A stretch of DNA of 32,000 nucleotides. Source: Aggregatilineales bacterium (GTDB lineage Bacteria; Chloroflexota; Anaerolineae; Aggregatilineales; Phototrophicaceae). Both the position numbers and the translations under genes were made by a program. The notes under the pieces were generated by a model. It did not search any database, was not told the DNA's origin, and saw only the letters and a list, made by a program, of their open reading frames with translations. The stretch is taken from the NCBI GenBank assembly GCA_040219275.1, contig JAVJSU010000072.1:56099-88098 (forward strand), read 5' to 3'. The stretch's first letter is position 1. Every line of letters begins with the position of its first letter. This document shows, piece by piece, positions 21,539 through 29,870 of this stretch.

Positions 21539-23458
21539 ATGCTCCCAAGATTCACAGTTAGCGAAAAATCTCGCAGAGGCCGTTTAGGTTCATTTGAATT
21601 TCAAAATGGTATTAAAAGTATATCTACTCCATTTATGTTTCCTGTTGCATCTACTGTTACAGGAACAACAGCTAATGGTGGTGGCATTTGGCGTTACGTT
21701 CTACAAGCGTATCCTGAAACGTACGACGAAGATGCAAGCGAGCTAAAAAGCCAGTCTCTCATGCGTCGAGGGACTCCGATTCTCTCACAGGTGTTACAAT
21801 TCTTAGATTATGGTGTTAGTCCGTCCAAGGTACAGTATTGGCGGGATGAGTCCATTCGCAAAATGTATAATGATGCACACACCATGGATTACCGTGCGCC
21901 AATTTTTCTGGATTCTGGAGGATTCAAGCTTATGTGGCGCGAAGGACTGGATCTCGATGCCTATGGTATTGATCTCAGTAAGTCCGCTGAAGCTCGGAGT
22001 ATTTCACAGCTTCAGTACGATCTGGGTGCAGACATCATCGCCAGTTTGGATTATCCAATTCCACCTAATCTCGCACCTGCTGAGGCTCGTGAGAGGATGA
22101 AACGTAGCCGAATGAATGCCATCCGAGTAGCTCGTGACTTACGCGACAAGAGGTTTCCCGGCTGGCGTCCGTTCTTTTACATGCCTGTTCACGGGTTGTC
22201 ACCTGAATCCATTACCTATTATATTGAACAATTATTTGGGCGTATAAGATACTATGATCTCGAAGGTGAGCCATTGGGTATTGCTATCGGTTCATTGGTA
22301 CCGTTGCGATTTTCACGTACCAACTTGTATAAGATTATCGAAATTGTTAATGCGGCTGTAAACGCTATACCAGAGCGCTTAAGAGATCAAATTCCTGTTC
22401 ACGTTTTCGGCGTAACAGGTACAGTGCTTCCTTACCTTGCATACTGCGGTGTGGATACATTTGATTCCAGTACATATGTTAAGGAGGCAATTAATCTCAA
22501 GTATATGGACCCTGACACGCGCGCGGGTCATGCCGTGTTAGAGATGACAGAGGATAGCTTTCATTGCCAGTGCGACATTTGTCGGTACCTGAATCTGCGT
22601 GAGGTTCAGGTCGCATTAGCAACGGATAGTAAGGGTAAACCGTTGCCACCACACAATCATCATAAAAGCAAATACTATGCTGATATTGCGTTGCACAATT
22701 TGGAACAAGACATTCAAATTGTCAGGGAGACTAGGGATGCAATTAACCAGGATTGTATGAACGAGTACATCATTCAGATGACAGAGCGCTTTCCCCGAAT
22801 GCGATATGCGCTCGATGCTCTCTGCCAAATCGATGATAGTCTCAAAGGACAAGTATCACGGGTACTACAACCGATCGAAAAACCTCTCAAAAAGACAAGC
22901 CCGAAGATCTACCAAACGTTTACACACACGGCTGACGACTTCGATCTTGCGCGAATGAATGGTAACCTTAGTGCAATTCTCACACCACCGCGCATCGCAC
23001 TTTTATTGCCATGCTCAGCCGATAAACCGTATTCCACCTCCCGAACCCACAGTTATGTGGAGCGGTACTTAGAGGAGTATTTCCCAGAGCAAAGAAACCG
23101 CATTCATAAGGTATCTTTATCAGGCTTATATGGTCCAGTTCCCGAAGATTATGAGTCCTATGAACCAATACTCAATTACAACTATCGACTTACTCCTGAA
23201 AATCAAGCACAGATCAAGTTGGTGTCCAAACGGCTCTTAGATTACTTGGAAGCATACCGGACAGGCTACACACATTATGTTGCCTATGCTACCAGCAAGG
23301 CTTATCGTATTGTCTTTGAACGGGTAGCTGAGGACTTTAAAGAGCTTACTGTATTGCCATCAGCACCAAAGTCGCGTCGACTAACAGAATTCTTTAGGGC
23401 TACGAATATCCAAGAGCTTGTACAATTTATAGACATAGCTCTTAATACTGATCTTTAG
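21539..23458 (+). CDS. TGT-fold (DpdA/ArcTGT-like) transglycosylase fused to an ArcS-type DUF5591 domain, without PUA
   Basis: TGT hallmarks are present: FLDSGGFKLMW (21908-21925), HVFGVTG...CGVDTFDSSTYV, and the zinc motif CQCDIC (22565-22582) followed by ALHN. The C-terminal domain carries LPCSADKPYSTSRTH (23009-23050), an exact match to the archaeosine synthase signature PC-X3-KPY-X2-S-X2-H. Confidence 0.85.
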   Translation: MLPRFTVSEKSRRGRLGSFEFQNGIKSISTPFMFPVASTVTGTTANGGGIWRYVLQAYPETYDEDASELKSQSLMRRGTPILSQVLQFLDYGVSPSKVQYWRDESIRKMYNDAHTMDYRAPIFLDSGGFKLMWREGLDLDAYGIDLSKSAEARSISQLQYDLGADIIASLDYPIPPNLAPAEARERMKRSRMNAIRVARDLRDKRFPGWRPFFYMPVHGLSPESITYYIEQLFGRIRYYDLEGEPLGIAIGSLVPLRFSRTNLYKIIEIVNAAVNAIPERLRDQIPVHVFGVTGTVLPYLAYCGVDTFDSSTYVKEAINLKYMDPDTRAGHAVLEMTEDSFHCQCDICRYLNLREVQVALATDSKGKPLPPHNHHKSKYYADIALHNLEQDIQIVRETRDAINQDCMNEYIIQMTERFPRMRYALDALCQIDDSLKGQVSRVLQPIEKPLKKTSPKIYQTFTHTADDFDLARMNGNLSAILTPPRIALLLPCSADKPYSTSRTHSYVERYLEEYFPEQRNRIHKVSLSGLYGPVPEDYESYEPILNYNYRLTPENQAQIKLVSKRLLDYLEAYRTGYTHYVAYATSKAYRIVFERVAEDFKELTVLPSAPKSRRLTEFFRATNIQELVQFIDIALNTDL

Positions 23459-23481
23459 TTTTTATTGCGAGGAAATTATTA

Positions 23482-29193: not shown

Positions 29194-29210
29194 ATGTTCT
29201 GCTTCCTAGG

Positions 29211-29870
29211 TTATCGATAAGGTATCGGGTCACTTATGCCGAGGGTTTCAAATGCCTTTACCCGTTCAACACACGTTGGGCAAATTCCACATGCCACCTC
29301 TTCACCTGCATAGCATGACCACGTTTTGCTGTAATCTACACCGAGTTCAAGCCCGATACGCAGGATATCTGCCTTCGAGAAGTTGAGAAAAGGTGCCACA
29401 ATATTAATATGACTTGGTGACAACTTATATAGGGCGTTGACGTGATTGACAAATTCCGGAGTTGTATCCCAATATCCGTAGATGTCATGTTTCTGAGCAC
29501 CATAGTATACCTCGTTTACACCTAACGTTTCAGCCCAGGCAATTGCCAATGCGAGAAAAATCATGTTTCTATTTGGTACATAAGTTGTTGGTTGTTCTTC
29601 TGGCAGGACGTTTGTTGCATTAGGAATATCAATCTGTTCGTTGATCAACGATGACATCGACCACAAAGCAGATAGTGATGATATATCAACGACTTTATGT
29701 AGCAGATTGAATACTGAAACATGTTTAGTTGCAAAGCTAACTTCTTTCTTGTGTCGCTGTCCATATTGAAAAGTGATTGCTGCCGGGTTGCGTTTTTGAT
29801 TTAACAGATAATACAGTAGCGTTGTACTATCAAAACCGCCGCTGAAAATTACAATACAATCGATTTGCAA
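29211..29870 (-). CDS. queC: 7-cyano-7-deazaguanine (preQ0) synthase QueC
   Basis: The PP-loop is VIFSGGFDSTT, followed by YVPNRNMIFL. The C-terminal zinc cluster is SCY...CGICPTCVERVKAF. TTG start. Confidence 0.9.
   Translation of the reverse strand: MQIDCIVIFSGGFDSTTLLYYLLNQKRNPAAITFQYGQRHKKEVSFATKHVSVFNLLHKVVDISSLSALWSMSSLINEQIDIPNATNVLPEEQPTTYVPNRNMIFLALAIAWAETLGVNEVYYGAQKHDIYGYWDTTPEFVNHVNALYKLSPSHINIVAPFLNFSKADILRIGLELGVDYSKTWSCYAGEEVACGICPTCVERVKAFETLGISDPIPYR

What the first reader, a model, noticed from the sequence alone, without database searches (positions are those of the whole stretch)
21539..29870. Compact 7-deazaguanine modification/restriction locus that looks like a Dpd x DISARM hybrid
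**Seen in sequence.** Four co-directional genes have near-zero spacing:
- a TGT-fold/ArcS-type fusion (21539-23458);
- a 1388-aa SF2 helicase ending in a DUF1998-type Cys module (23482-27648);
- a PLD-type HxK protein (27614-28105);
- a nucleoside 2-deoxyribosyltransferase (28110-28529).

They converge on queC and a yhhQ-type preQ0 transporter.

**Established knowledge.**
- Dpd systems use a TGT-like DpdA, with DpdB (ParB-like ATPase) and DpdC, to place preQ0/ADG in DNA. DpdD-K act as the restriction part.
- DISARM is built on DrmA (helicase), DrmB (DUF1998) and DrmC (PLD), plus a DNA methyltransferase.

**Inference.** Here the helicase/DUF1998/PLD triad is paired with a 7-deazaguanine enzyme set in place of a methyltransferase. 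No DpdB-like, DpdC-like or methyltransferase ORF is visible anywhere in the window. I do not recognise this minimal architecture, carried on an ICE, as a described system. It would mark self DNA with a deazaguanine derivative and restrict unmodified DNA.
Basis: partly seen in the sequence, partly recalled or inferred. Interest (0 to 1): 0.9.

Follow-up and report, generated by a model that had tools for sequence, protein, structure and literature searches.

The report
Minimal Dpd-like deazaguanine restriction–modification cassette
A mobile element in a Chloroflexota genome carries a compact gene cassette that most likely marks its host's DNA with a 7-deazaguanine base and cuts unmarked DNA; it is a stripped-down, previously undescribed variant of the known Dpd anti-phage system, not a categorically new system.

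Summary
Six genes lie at the stated coordinates, and every domain call was reproduced.

The "Dpd x DISARM hybrid" label is not needed:
- The 1388-aa helicase and the 163-aa PLD protein match Dpd's own DpdJ and DpdK best, far better than DrmA/B/C.
- They also have the Dpd layout: an unsplit helicase with the Zn module, and a short PLD.

What is unusual is the modification side. DpdA/B/C are replaced by one protein. It has an arcTGT-like transglycosylase domain with all catalytic residues, fused to the ArcS C1 amidino-transfer domain with its signature motif intact. It has no PUA domain.

Comparative genomics supports a two-module restriction–modification system:
- The same fusion/Ndt/YhhQ/QueC set (72–93% identical) occurs with NurA+HerA in the effector slot.
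- The same helicase family occurs elsewhere with a bona fide DpdA plus a DndB-like protein.
- The fusion + helicase + PLD triad recurs in Chloroflexota, Cyanobacteria and Deinococcota.
- Haloarchaeal BRIGADE-like plasmid loci hold homologues of all three.

DNA as the substrate, the chemical product (dG+ or a preQ0-lysine adduct) and restriction activity are all inferred, not shown. "ICE" is unproven.

Verdict: a new variant of a known kind, of moderate to high interest.

The parts
21539..23458 (+). Modification enzyme. An arcTGT-like transglycosylase domain (aa ~100-420) is fused to the ArcS C1 / DUF5591 domain (aa ~485-606). There is no PUA domain.
   Evidence: - PF01702 and PF17884.
- The family profile best matches P. 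horikoshii arcTGT 1iq8 (6e-23) and AF0587 2q07 (2.5e-8).
- Catalytic D125 and D309, substrate-site D171 and the Zn site C343/C345/C348/H386 are invariant in 20 homologues.
- The ArcS C1 motif PC-X3-KPY-X2-S-X2-H (PMC10516641) is intact as P491-C492...K496-P-Y498...S501...H504.
- AF2 model: pLDDT 85. Top Foldseek hit is arcTGT, and the C-terminal part is alpha/beta only.
23482..27648 (+). Restriction-module motor. A YprA-family, DpdJ-like DExH helicase with internal Zn ribbons and a C-terminal MZB/DUF1998 Zn module.
   Evidence: - PADLOC DpdJ 5.5e-72 and NCBIfam DpdJ 6e-65, N-terminal half only; DrmA reaches only ~50 bits.
- PF09369 on the C-terminal fragment.
- Walker A A165-T172, D364-E-V-H367 and Q614-R621 are conserved.
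- The next-nearest relatives outside the family include NCBI-named DpdJ proteins.
- The C-terminal half has only 67 relatives among 1.84 billion representatives.
27614..28105 (+). Restriction-module nuclease. A short DpdK-like PLD/Nuc-type HKD protein whose gene overlaps the helicase stop codon.
   Evidence: - DpdK 7.5e-9 (PADLOC) and 4.3e-7 (NCBIfam); DrmC only 4e-3.
- Invariant HxK, SAN and RNxE. The Asp of HxKxxxxD is Ser119 in the window.
- The same overlapping helicase-PLD arrangement occurs in the haloarchaeal locus L171.
28110..28529 (+). Nucleoside 2-deoxyribosyltransferase. An accessory of the modification/precursor module, not of the effector module.
   Evidence: - PF05014 3.5e-25.
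- Closest solved structures are bacterial NDTs 7o62, 7m5h and 6evs, with the catalytic Glu in D-x-G-T-x-x-E-L-G-Y conserved.
- It stays with YhhQ/QueC/fusion in L004 and L084 although the effector genes differ there.
28510..29193 (-). YhhQ-type queuosine-precursor (preQ0/preQ1) transporter.
   Evidence: PF02592 4e-55; TIGR00697 136 bits against a cut-off of 51.
29211..29870 (-). QueC, the 7-cyano-7-deazaguanine (preQ0) synthase. It is the canonical type, not QatC/Cap9-like.
   Evidence: PF06508 8e-63; TIGR00364 190 bits against a cut-off of 150; QatC only 23 bits.
29892..30944 (-). Tyrosine integrase of the carrying mobile element (context).
   Evidence: PF00589 2e-23; phrog_1 integrase 9e-29.
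18137..21431 (+). Replication/regulation genes of the mobile element, directly upstream of the cassette: DUF3987 primase-helicase, DnaG-type primase and a LexA-DNA-binding-type wHTH protein (context).
   Evidence: Pfam and PHROG hits. GC is 41-47% across most of ~12-30 kb, against 50-56% across most of the flanks.

Best explanation
The locus is a two-module, Dpd-like 7-deazaguanine restriction-modification system carried as cargo on an integrative mobile element.

**Modification/precursor module.**
- YhhQ imports preQ0-type bases.
- QueC converts CDG to preQ0.
- The TGT domain of the 639-aa fusion exchanges guanine in DNA for preQ0.
- The fused ArcS-C1 domain then converts the nitrile in situ to an amidine: dG+, or a preQ0-lysine-type adduct because no RaSEA partner is present. 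By analogy with ArcS, this would lock the base against reverse exchange.
- Ndt is an accessory for salvage or interconversion of the base and its deoxynucleoside.

**Restriction module.**
- The DpdJ-like helicase loads and translocates on DNA.
- Together with the small DpdK-like PLD nuclease it degrades DNA that lacks the mark.

**Shown:** gene order, domain identities, intact catalytic motifs, conserved linkage and module exchange.

**Inferred:** DNA rather than tRNA as substrate, the chemical product, and restriction of unmodified DNA.
For: 1. **Components are intact.**
 - arcTGT-type catalytic Asp pair and Zn site, and the ArcS C1 motif, are invariant across 20 homologues.
 - Helicase motifs and the MZB Cys cluster are invariant.
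 - The HKD core is invariant.
 - QueC and YhhQ pass the equivalog cut-offs.
2. **No RNA-binding PUA domain**.
3. **Same modification module, different effectors.**
 - L084 has the fusion at 77%, Ndt 81%, YhhQ 93% and QueC 72% identity, but NurA+HerA between them.
 - L004 keeps these four genes at 67-77% identity, while its helicase and PLD are only 30% and 28% identical.
 - Other partners of the fusion: NurA+HerA (L006), DpdJ-like helicase followed by PDC-M02 genes (L003/L017), DUF262/NsnA-like plus HEPN (11 cyanobacterial loci), and bona fide DrmA+DrmB (L076).
4. **Same effector, different modification module.** Helicases 39-40% identical to the window's sit beside a bona fide DpdA (425 bits, with a DpdC-like N-terminus) plus a DndB-like protein in L087 and L090. 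The fusion therefore occupies the place of DpdA/B/C.
5. **Linkage is general.**
 - At least 28 of 68 helicase-family clusters share a contig length with a listed fusion hit.
 - All 4 'unmatched' helicases that were looked up also neighbour a TGT-family gene.
 - The triad occurs in Chloroflexota, Cyanobacteria and Deinococcota.
6. **preQ0 genes cluster with it elsewhere:** QueD+QueE+QueC in L071; QueC+YhhQ in L080 and L089.
7. **Precedents.**
 - Phage nt-1 DpdA2 plus a stand-alone ArcS C1 domain (ArcS2) give dPreQ0, then dG+, in plasmid DNA in E. coli (PMC10516641).
 - DpdD-K confer the restriction phenotype of Dpd (PMC10164549).
 - ArcS forms preQ0-Lys, which ArcTGT cannot exchange back (PMC11298593).
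Against: - Nothing here shows DNA modification or restriction directly.
- The TGT domain is closer to tRNA-acting arcTGT/ArcS (86-93 bits) than to DpdA (15 bits).
- In Poribacteria, which supplied most of the genome loci retrieved, the fusion lies in syntenic, housekeeping-looking neighbourhoods without a helicase or nuclease. It could therefore have a non-defence or tRNA role there.
- No DpdB-like ATPase is present, although S. Montevideo DpdA needs one. Phage DpdA does not.
- preQ0 synthesis is incomplete on the element (no FolE/QueD/QueE), so it depends on host CDG or imported preQ0.
- The PLD lacks the Asp of the HKD motif (Ser119).
- No fusion homologue was found in viral contigs.
- Some partner genes of the fusion (PDC-M02, PD-T7-1) may simply be neighbours in defence islands.
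Confidence: 0.6

Rival explanations
1. The fusion is a tRNA enzyme: it would make archaeosine-like G+ or preQ0-Lys in bacterial tRNA, supplied by QueC/YhhQ. The helicase-PLD pair is then a separate, stand-alone DpdJK-like defence unit that merely sits beside it.
For: - The TGT domain scores highest against arcTGT and ArcS, not DpdA.
- In Poribacteria the fusion sits among housekeeping-looking genes with no nuclease nearby.
- ArcS chemistry is established only on RNA substrates.
Against: - There is no PUA or C2 domain.
- The 23-nt spacing and same-strand operon arrangement are conserved across three phyla at 31-50% identity.
- The same helicase family otherwise pairs with bona fide DpdA.
- The effector slot between the fusion and Ndt/YhhQ/QueC is exchanged as a cassette.
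- The fusion neighbours defence genes in nearly all loci outside Poribacteria.
Confidence: 0.12
2. The modification genes are an anti-restriction device of the mobile element. They would camouflage the element's DNA, and the host's, against other restriction systems, as phage DpdA does. The helicase-PLD pair is then an independent defence or competition module that does not read the mark.
For: - The cassette is cargo of an integrase/primase-bearing element.
- 7-deazaguanines protect phage DNA from restriction enzymes (PMC6884629).
- The fusion occurs without any nearby nuclease in many genomes.
Against: - Reciprocal module exchange is what coupled R-M modules show: the same helicase family occurs with either DpdA or the fusion.
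- No phage or viral contig carries the fusion.
Confidence: 0.13
3. This is a true Dpd x DISARM hybrid: a DISARM DrmA/B/C core that swapped its methyltransferase for deazaguanine enzymes.
For: - DpdJ and DrmAB are both YprA-family, and Dpd and DISARM share one clade.
- There are weak DrmA and DrmC hits.
- In L076 a bona fide DrmA+DrmB pair does sit next to a fusion homologue.
Against: - In the window the best models are DpdJ (241 bits against 50 for DrmA) and DpdK (7.5e-9 against 4e-3 for DrmC).
- The helicase is unsplit, and the PLD is only 163 aa, the short Dpd type described as lacking DrmC's N-terminal helical bundle.
- After a sharp drop in score, the nearest relatives outside the family include proteins named DpdJ.
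Confidence: 0.08
4. The TGT-family enzyme conjugates a deazaguanine to a protein or small molecule, as QueC-like and TGT-like proteins are reported to do in other defence systems (my recollection for type IV CBASS, not checked in the papers). It would not modify nucleic acid.
For: - The family profile gives a marginal match to Cap10 (9ntn, E 8e-3).
- TGT and QueC folds have been repurposed in defence systems (PMC13329287).
Against: - QueC here is the canonical equivalog (190 bits); QatC reaches only 23 bits.
- YhhQ is a canonical precursor transporter.
- The TGT domain keeps the full arcTGT nucleic-acid transglycosylase residue set.
- There is no CD-NTase or Qat partner in the window.
Confidence: 0.04

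Closest known systems
Dpd system (DpdA-K; Salmonella Montevideo type)
   Same: - The logic is the same: preQ0-derived 7-deazaguanine as a DNA self-mark plus a restriction module.
- The helicase and PLD are most similar to DpdJ and DpdK.
- The same helicase family is found with a bona fide DpdA plus a DndB-like protein in L087 and L090.
   Different: - There is no DpdA-family enzyme (15 bits against a cut-off of 200), no DpdB, no DpdC and no DpdD-I.
- Modification is by an arcTGT-like-ArcS C1 fusion, so the predicted product is an amidine (dG+ or preQ0-Lys type) rather than dADG.
- DpdJ and DpdK similarity is far below the equivalog cut-offs, and the C-terminal half of the helicase does not match the DpdJ model.
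- The core is 3 genes rather than 11.
BRIGADE (Bell et al. 2025, bioRxiv 10.1101/2025.09.15.676423), reported only in haloarchaea
   Same: A BRIGADE-like haloarchaeal plasmid locus (L171) contains two homologues of the fusion (34% and 32% identical), a helicase 27% identical to the window's, and an overlapping small PLD gene (24% identical).
   Different: - The window has one helicase, not two.
- It has no separate DUF6884 and TGT genes such as the ones annotated in L171. No large L171-type AAA ATPase and no DpdG or DpdHI/BrxC were seen among the ORFs scanned; 8 smaller window ORFs had Pfam only, not PADLOC.
- It is bacterial (Chloroflexota) and sits on a small integrative element.
- That L171 is a BRIGADE locus is my reading of its gene content, not taken from the paper's tables.
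DISARM (DrmA, DrmB, DrmC + methyltransferase)
   Same: It has a YprA-family helicase, a DUF1998/MZB module, a PLD nuclease and a DNA-modifying partner.
   Different: - Helicase and MZB are one polypeptide.
- The PLD is short and DpdK-like.
- There is no methyltransferase.
- DrmA and DrmC hits are marginal.
- A genuine DISARM core next to a fusion homologue exists in L076, not in this window.
Phage DpdA2 + ArcS2 (Vibrio phage nt-1) dG+ pathway
   Same: It uses a transglycosylase plus an ArcS C1 domain with the PC-X3-KPY-X2-S-X2-H motif, acting on DNA and fed by preQ0 (PMC10516641).
   Different: - Here the two activities are fused in one protein.
- The TGT domain is arcTGT-like rather than DpdA-like.
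- The genes are cellular/MGE-borne and coupled to a helicase-nuclease module.
- No viral homologue of the fusion was found.
BRC systems with GNAT/TGT modification genes (PMC12839542)
   Same: It is another recently described case in which a TGT homologue without DpdB or DpdC is proposed as the self-marking module of a composite defence system.
   Different: The effector context is entirely different (HerA/FtsK, PglZ, BrxC-like). It has no ArcS domain, no YprA helicase and no PLD.

Membership tests
Dpd | DpdA: TGT-family DNA transglycosylase (NF041059, cut-off 200 bits) | tested here: not met
   The fusion scores 15.2 bits against NF041059. It hits no PADLOC DpdA model, only a generic 'TGT' model at E 0.0088. 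It does pass the TGT superfamily model TIGR00449 (65.6 bits against a cut-off of 47.6).
Dpd | DpdB (ParB/DndB-like ATPase) and DpdC (DUF328) present | tested here: not met
   No such domain was found in any window ORF of at least 100 aa. No DpdB or DpdC hit appeared in the PADLOC scans of 17 window proteins.
Dpd | DpdJ helicase (NF041067, cut-off 800 bits) | tested here: not met
   DpdJ is the best-scoring family, but only 219.7 bits over aa 70-671, and 241 bits for the PADLOC model. The C-terminal half is unmatched. DpdJ is the closest family, not the family it belongs to.
Dpd | DpdK PLD nuclease (NF041068, cut-off 100 bits) | tested here: not met
   DpdK is the best and only specific hit, at 29.7 bits (NCBIfam) and 7.5e-9 (PADLOC).
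Dpd | DpdD-I restriction components | tested here: not met
   Among the 17 window proteins scanned, the only DpdD-I hits are weak DpdF matches (~27-37 bits) to the Helicase_C region of the 1388-aa helicase itself; no separate DpdD-I gene was found. ORFs 14830-21431 and 31022-31345 were scanned with Pfam and/or PHROGs only.
Dpd | dPreQ0/dADG present in genomic DNA | not testable with these tools
   This needs LC-MS/MS of DNA.
DISARM | DrmA helicase and DrmB (DUF1998) as separate genes | tested here: not met
   A single 1388-aa ORF carries both. DrmA hits are at most 50 bits and partial, and there is no DrmB hit.
DISARM | DrmC PLD nuclease, typically with an N-terminal 4-helix bundle | tested here: not met
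   The 163-aa protein matches DrmC models only at E of about 4e-3, in the HKD region. It aligns over nearly the whole of the 167-173-position DpdK models.
DISARM | Associated DNA methyltransferase (DrmMI/DrmMII) | tested here: not met
   No methyltransferase domain was found in the window.
BRIGADE | Usually two YprA-like helicases, with DpdG and DpdHI/BrxC; haloarchaeal | tested here: not met
   The window has one helicase and no DpdG- or BrxC-like hit among the 17 proteins scanned with PADLOC. The host is an Aggregatilineales MAG.
BRIGADE | 7-deazaguanine genes plus a small PLD nuclease next to a YprA helicase | tested here: met
   QueC, YhhQ, the TGT fusion, and a helicase with an overlapping PLD gene are all present. 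Homologues of the fusion, helicase and PLD lie in the haloarchaeal locus L171.
ArcS / arcTGT (tRNA archaeosine enzymes) | TGT-fold catalytic Asp pair and Zn site | tested here: met
   D125 and D309 align to arcTGT D95 and D249. C343/C345/C348/H386 form the Zn site. All are invariant in 20 homologues.
ArcS / arcTGT (tRNA archaeosine enzymes) | ArcS C1 motif PC-X3-KPY-X2-S-X2-H | tested here: met
   PCSADKPYSTSRTH at aa 491-504; the motif residues are invariant in the family. The motif is taken from PMC10516641.
ArcS / arcTGT (tRNA archaeosine enzymes) | C-terminal C2 and PUA RNA-binding domains; equivalog score (ArcS 440, TgtA 350 bits) | tested here: not met
   There is no PUA hit. The model shows only an alpha/beta domain after residue 485. 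Scores are 92.6 and 86.2 bits.

The most novel reading that the evidence does not exclude
The arcTGT-ArcS fusion is a self-contained, single-polypeptide DNA hypermodification enzyme. It writes an amidine-type 7-deazaguanine, either dG+ or a so-far-unseen 2'-deoxy-preQ0-lysine adduct, into cellular chromosomal DNA. It serves as a plug-and-play self-marking gene for at least four unrelated effector modules: DpdJ/K-like, NurA-HerA, DUF262-HEPN and DrmA/B. These occur in Chloroflexota, Cyanobacteria and haloarchaea; the DpdJ/K-like pairing also occurs in Deinococcota. Poribacteria carry the fusion without a nearby helicase or nuclease. The window's three-gene core would be the smallest known deazaguanine R-M system.
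Probability: 0.35. Interest if true: 0.8.

Novelty: new variant of a known kind. Interest (0 to 1): 0.6.

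Why it matters
Canonical Dpd is an 11-gene system. The roles of its restriction proteins DpdD-K are still unknown (PMC10164549).

A natural version reduced to one modification enzyme plus a DpdJ-like helicase and a DpdK-like nuclease would be a tractable model for three questions:
- how a 7-deazaguanine mark is read;
- which Dpd parts are sufficient for restriction;
- whether an ArcS-type domain works on DNA in cells.

It also predicts an amidine-type deazaguanine in bacterial chromosomal DNA. That would be dG+, which the papers I read report in phage and viral DNA, or a lysine adduct.

The fusion family has at least 448 clusters at 90% identity. The public records that name it call it a tRNA-guanine transglycosylase or 7-cyano-7-deazaguanine tRNA-ribosyltransferase, which is probably a mis-annotation for many members.

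Tried and rejected
- **E. coli genomes.** A megablast of the cassette found nothing.
- **tRNA scan.** No tRNA in the window, so no att site could be assigned. Direct-repeat searches gave only short, unconvincing candidate boundary repeats.
- **Rfam.** No preQ1 riboswitch or any other RNA family in the window.
- **Promoter/terminator scan.** No more sites than in shuffled sequence.
- **Metagenome scan with the helicase alignment.** Uninformative, because the tool chose a generic Walker-A pattern. Only L091 and L092 are true relatives.
- **Viral contigs and the phage collection.** No full-length homologue of the fusion.
- **Supplements of the YprA paper.** They do not mention TGT, DUF5591 or QueC in the text that is held, so I could not tell whether this clade is among its 'uncharacterized Dpd-like classes'.
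- **Literature searches** for DUF5591/PF17884, for ArcS plus defence, and for Ndt plus deazaguanine found no description of this gene set.
- **QatC/Cap9-type QueC.** Considered and rejected: the canonical QueC equivalog is met.
- **RaSEA-like radical SAM partner.** Considered and rejected: there is none in the window.
- **Ndt as part of the effector module.** Considered and rejected: it travels with YhhQ/QueC when the effector is swapped.

Full report
**Observation.**

- 21539-23458 (+, 639 aa)
- 23482-27648 (+, 1388 aa)
- 27614-28105 (+, 163 aa)
- 28110-28529 (+, 139 aa)
- 28510-29193 (-, 227 aa)
- 29211-29870 (-, 219 aa)

The four plus-strand genes are separated by +23, -35 and +4 nt. The 3' ends of Ndt and yhhQ overlap by 20 nt.

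Profile searches reproduce every domain call:
- Fusion: TGT + DUF5591.
- Helicase: DEAD + Helicase_C. The DUF1998/MZB module appears only when the C-terminal fragment is scanned alone (26.8 bits against a cut-off of 24.2).
- Ndt: Nuc_deoxyrib_tr.
- YhhQ: Vut_1/TIGR00697 above the equivalog cut-off.
- QueC: TIGR00364 above the equivalog cut-off.
- PLD: no Pfam hit, but it matches DpdK. Its HxK, SAN and RNxE residues are invariant in eight homologues; the Asp of HxKxxxxD is Ser in the window.

No methyltransferase, ParB/DndB-like or DUF328 protein is encoded anywhere in the window.

The window comes from an Aggregatilineales (Chloroflexota) MAG.

**The carrier.**

The cassette lies in a stretch of mostly 41-47% GC (~12-30 kb), between flanks of mostly 50-56%. 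It sits beside:
- a tyrosine integrase;
- a ParM-like protein;
- a DUF3987 primase/helicase;
- a DnaG-type primase;
- a wHTH protein;
- a HEPN AbiU2 gene.

This is an integrative mobile element. No relaxase or T4SS was detected. The only hint of conjugation is a sub-threshold TraG P-loop match (E 0.011) in ORF 758-3001. "ICE" is therefore unproven.

**What the parts are.**

*Helicase.*
- Its best models are DpdJ (PADLOC 241 bits, NCBIfam 220 bits). DrmA reaches about 50 bits.
- Walker A, DEVH, motif VI and the C-terminal Cys cluster are invariant in the family.
- It belongs to a tight family of about 68 clusters. After a sharp drop in score, the next relatives include proteins that NCBI names DpdJ.
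- Its C-terminal half has only 67 relatives among 1.84 billion representatives.

*PLD.*
- Its best hit is DpdK (7.5e-9). DrmC reaches 4e-3.
- Bell et al. 2025 state that Dpd-type YprA helicases are unsplit and pair with a PLD that lacks the N-terminal 4-helix bundle. DISARM instead splits DrmA from DrmB and has a longer DrmC.
- The window has the unsplit helicase and a 163-aa PLD. The helicase/DUF1998/PLD triad is therefore Dpd's own DpdJ+DpdK module, and no DISARM contribution needs to be invoked.

*Fusion protein.*
- Its family profile matches P. horikoshii arcTGT (6e-23) and the DUF5591 protein AF0587.
- The arcTGT catalytic residues D95 and D249 correspond to D125 and D309.
- These, the substrate-site D171 and the CxCxxC...H Zn site are invariant in 20 homologues.
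- The ArcS C1 signature PC-X3-KPY-X2-S-X2-H (PMC10516641) is present as PCSADKPYSTSRTH and is invariant.
- The AF2 model (pLDDT 85) shows a TIM barrel plus an alpha/beta C-terminal domain and no PUA domain.
- It fails the DpdA, ArcS and TgtA equivalog cut-offs and passes only the TGT superfamily model.

**Comparative genomics.**

The fusion family has at least 448 clusters at 90% identity. The public records that name it call it a tRNA-guanine transglycosylase or 7-cyano-7-deazaguanine tRNA-ribosyltransferase. I analysed 80 genome loci plus contigs found by look-up, using my own ORF calling and clustering. Three results matter.

1. *The triad recurs.* Fusion + helicase + PLD is found in Chloroflexota, Cyanobacteria and Deinococcota: window/L086, L085, L004, L005, L009, L063, L071, L072, L080, L088 and L089. 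Some of these loci also carry QueD/QueE/QueC or QueC/YhhQ.

2. *The modification set is kept while the effector slot changes.*
   - L084 has the fusion at 77%, Ndt 81%, YhhQ 93% and QueC 72% identity, with NurA+HerA where the helicase and PLD would be.
   - L004 keeps these four genes at 67-77% identity, but its helicase and PLD are only 30% and 28% identical.
   - Other neighbours of the fusion are NurA+HerA (L006), a DpdJ-like helicase followed by PDC-M02 genes (L003/L017), a DUF262/NsnA-like protein plus HEPN (11 cyanobacterial loci), and a bona fide DrmA+DrmB pair (L076).

3. *The effector is kept while the modification module changes.* Helicases 39-40% identical to the window's sit next to a bona fide DpdA (425 bits, with a DpdC-like/DUF6884 N-terminus) and a DndB-like protein in L087 and L090.

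This reciprocal exchange is the pattern expected of the two halves of a restriction-modification system.

A haloarchaeal plasmid locus (L171) has gene content like the BRIGADE systems of Bell et al. It holds two fusion homologues, a related helicase and an overlapping small PLD gene.

**Caveats.**
- In Poribacteria, which supplied most of the genome loci retrieved, the fusion lies among housekeeping-looking genes: Fe-ADH, oxidoreductase, aminotransferase, PPIase and a KamA-like radical SAM enzyme. Often an N6/N4 DNA methylase lies just upstream or a GNAT downstream. No helicase or nuclease is nearby. Its role there could differ.
- The TGT domain is nearer to tRNA enzymes than to DpdA.
- No experiment bears on this family.

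**Mechanism (inferred).**
- YhhQ and QueC supply preQ0. The element lacks FolE/QueD/QueE, so it depends on host CDG or on import.
- The TGT domain exchanges G for preQ0 in DNA.
- The ArcS-C1 domain converts the nitrile to an amidine. T. kodakarensis ArcS makes preQ0-lysine and needs the radical-SAM RaSEA to reach G+. preQ0-Lys cannot be exchanged back by ArcTGT (PMC11298593).
- No RaSEA-like gene is in the window. The product could therefore be a lysine adduct. It could also be dG+, as seen at low level with phage nt-1 ArcS2 in E. coli.
- The DpdJ-like helicase and DpdK-like PLD would then attack unmarked DNA, by analogy with DpdD-K (PMC10164549).
- Ndt stays with the precursor genes across effector swaps, so it is probably a base/deoxynucleoside salvage accessory. 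Its substrate is unknown.

**Novelty.**
- Searches of the held literature found no description of a TGT-DUF5591 fusion in a cellular defence locus. Only one work in the library mentions DUF5591/PF17884 at all.
- Near neighbours are described:
  - Dpd;
  - BRIGADE, reported only in haloarchaea;
  - BRC systems, which have a TGT without DpdB or DpdC.
- I therefore rate it a new variant of a known kind, not categorically new.
- Interest is 0.6. It offers a minimal, tractable Dpd-like system and a testable prediction of a new cellular DNA modification. The concept, however, is an extension of known biology, and every functional step is inferred.

Noticed in passing
window 15815-16011 and 19760-19957: A direct repeat of about 197 nt (about 88-90% identical) lies immediately upstream of ORF 16037-17056 and of the primase gene 19972-20979. 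It is rich in TGGCA/TGCCA motifs. There is no RNA-structure signal (z -1.48). It is probably a duplicated regulatory or iteron-like region of the mobile element.
   Followed up: partly
window 12174-13364 (-): A HEPN AbiU2-family gene (PF18734, 4.6e-14) is followed by an overlapping 141-aa ORF with no hits, next to a ParM-like partition gene (13364-14632). This is a second probable defence or abortive-infection gene on the same element.
   Followed up: no
window 758-11205 (-): Six co-directional ORFs (747, 570, 881, 237, 425 and 248 aa) have no significant Pfam or PADLOC hit. The exceptions are a sub-threshold TraG P-loop / mad8 HerA-like match in the 747-aa protein and weak LuxR/response-regulator signals in the 248-aa protein. 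They may be divergent conjugation or secretion genes.
   Followed up: partly
L084 10001-17445 (Logan SRR31719415 contig): This close relative of the window cassette has NurA+HerA in place of the helicase+PLD. An Eco57I-type 1301-aa R-M enzyme and a topoisomerase lie upstream. It is a natural effector-swap variant worth testing side by side with the window cassette.
   Followed up: partly
L076 9908-20035 (Chloroflexota MAG JAJPKE010000021.1): A fusion homologue converges on a bona fide DrmB (281 bits) and DrmA (1050 bits), plus a GajB-like UvrD helicase with a Gp49/RelE-like N-terminus. PADLOC detected no methyltransferase in the three ORFs scanned just upstream of the fusion. A true 'DISARM/ARMADA + deazaguanine' combination may exist here rather than in the window.
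   Followed up: partly
L087 3243-11960 (Pannus brasiliensis) and L090 2657-11948: This is a cyanobacterial variant. A DUF6884/DpdC-like-DpdA fusion (805 and 696 aa), a 276-aa unknown protein, a DndB-like protein and an ~80-aa ORF precede a helicase of the window's family. No PLD gene was called downstream.
   Followed up: partly
L022-L075 (Poribacteria genome loci): Most Poribacteria genomes retrieved carry one or two copies of the fusion in syntenic chromosomal contexts. In about 14 loci an N6_N4 DNA methylase lies just upstream (adjacent, or one small ORF away). In 6 loci a GNAT lies directly downstream. In 11 loci an aminotransferase/PPIase/KamA-like radical-SAM trio lies downstream. No helicase or nuclease is adjacent.
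   Followed up: partly
L001, L007, L008, L011, L013-L016, L018, L019 (cyanobacteria): The fusion is followed by a DUF262 protein (NsnA / PD-T4-2_A-like, 205 bits) and a HEPN protein. In L011 a helicase of the window's family sits between them. The DUF262 protein is a ParB-fold candidate for a DpdB-like role, or part of a GmrSD-like effector.
   Followed up: partly
window 16037-17056 (+): A 339-aa ORF has a weak AbiJ N-terminal domain 3 hit (4e-4) and DUF559/RAP-like C-terminal hints. It may be a further defence-related nuclease on the element.
   Followed up: no
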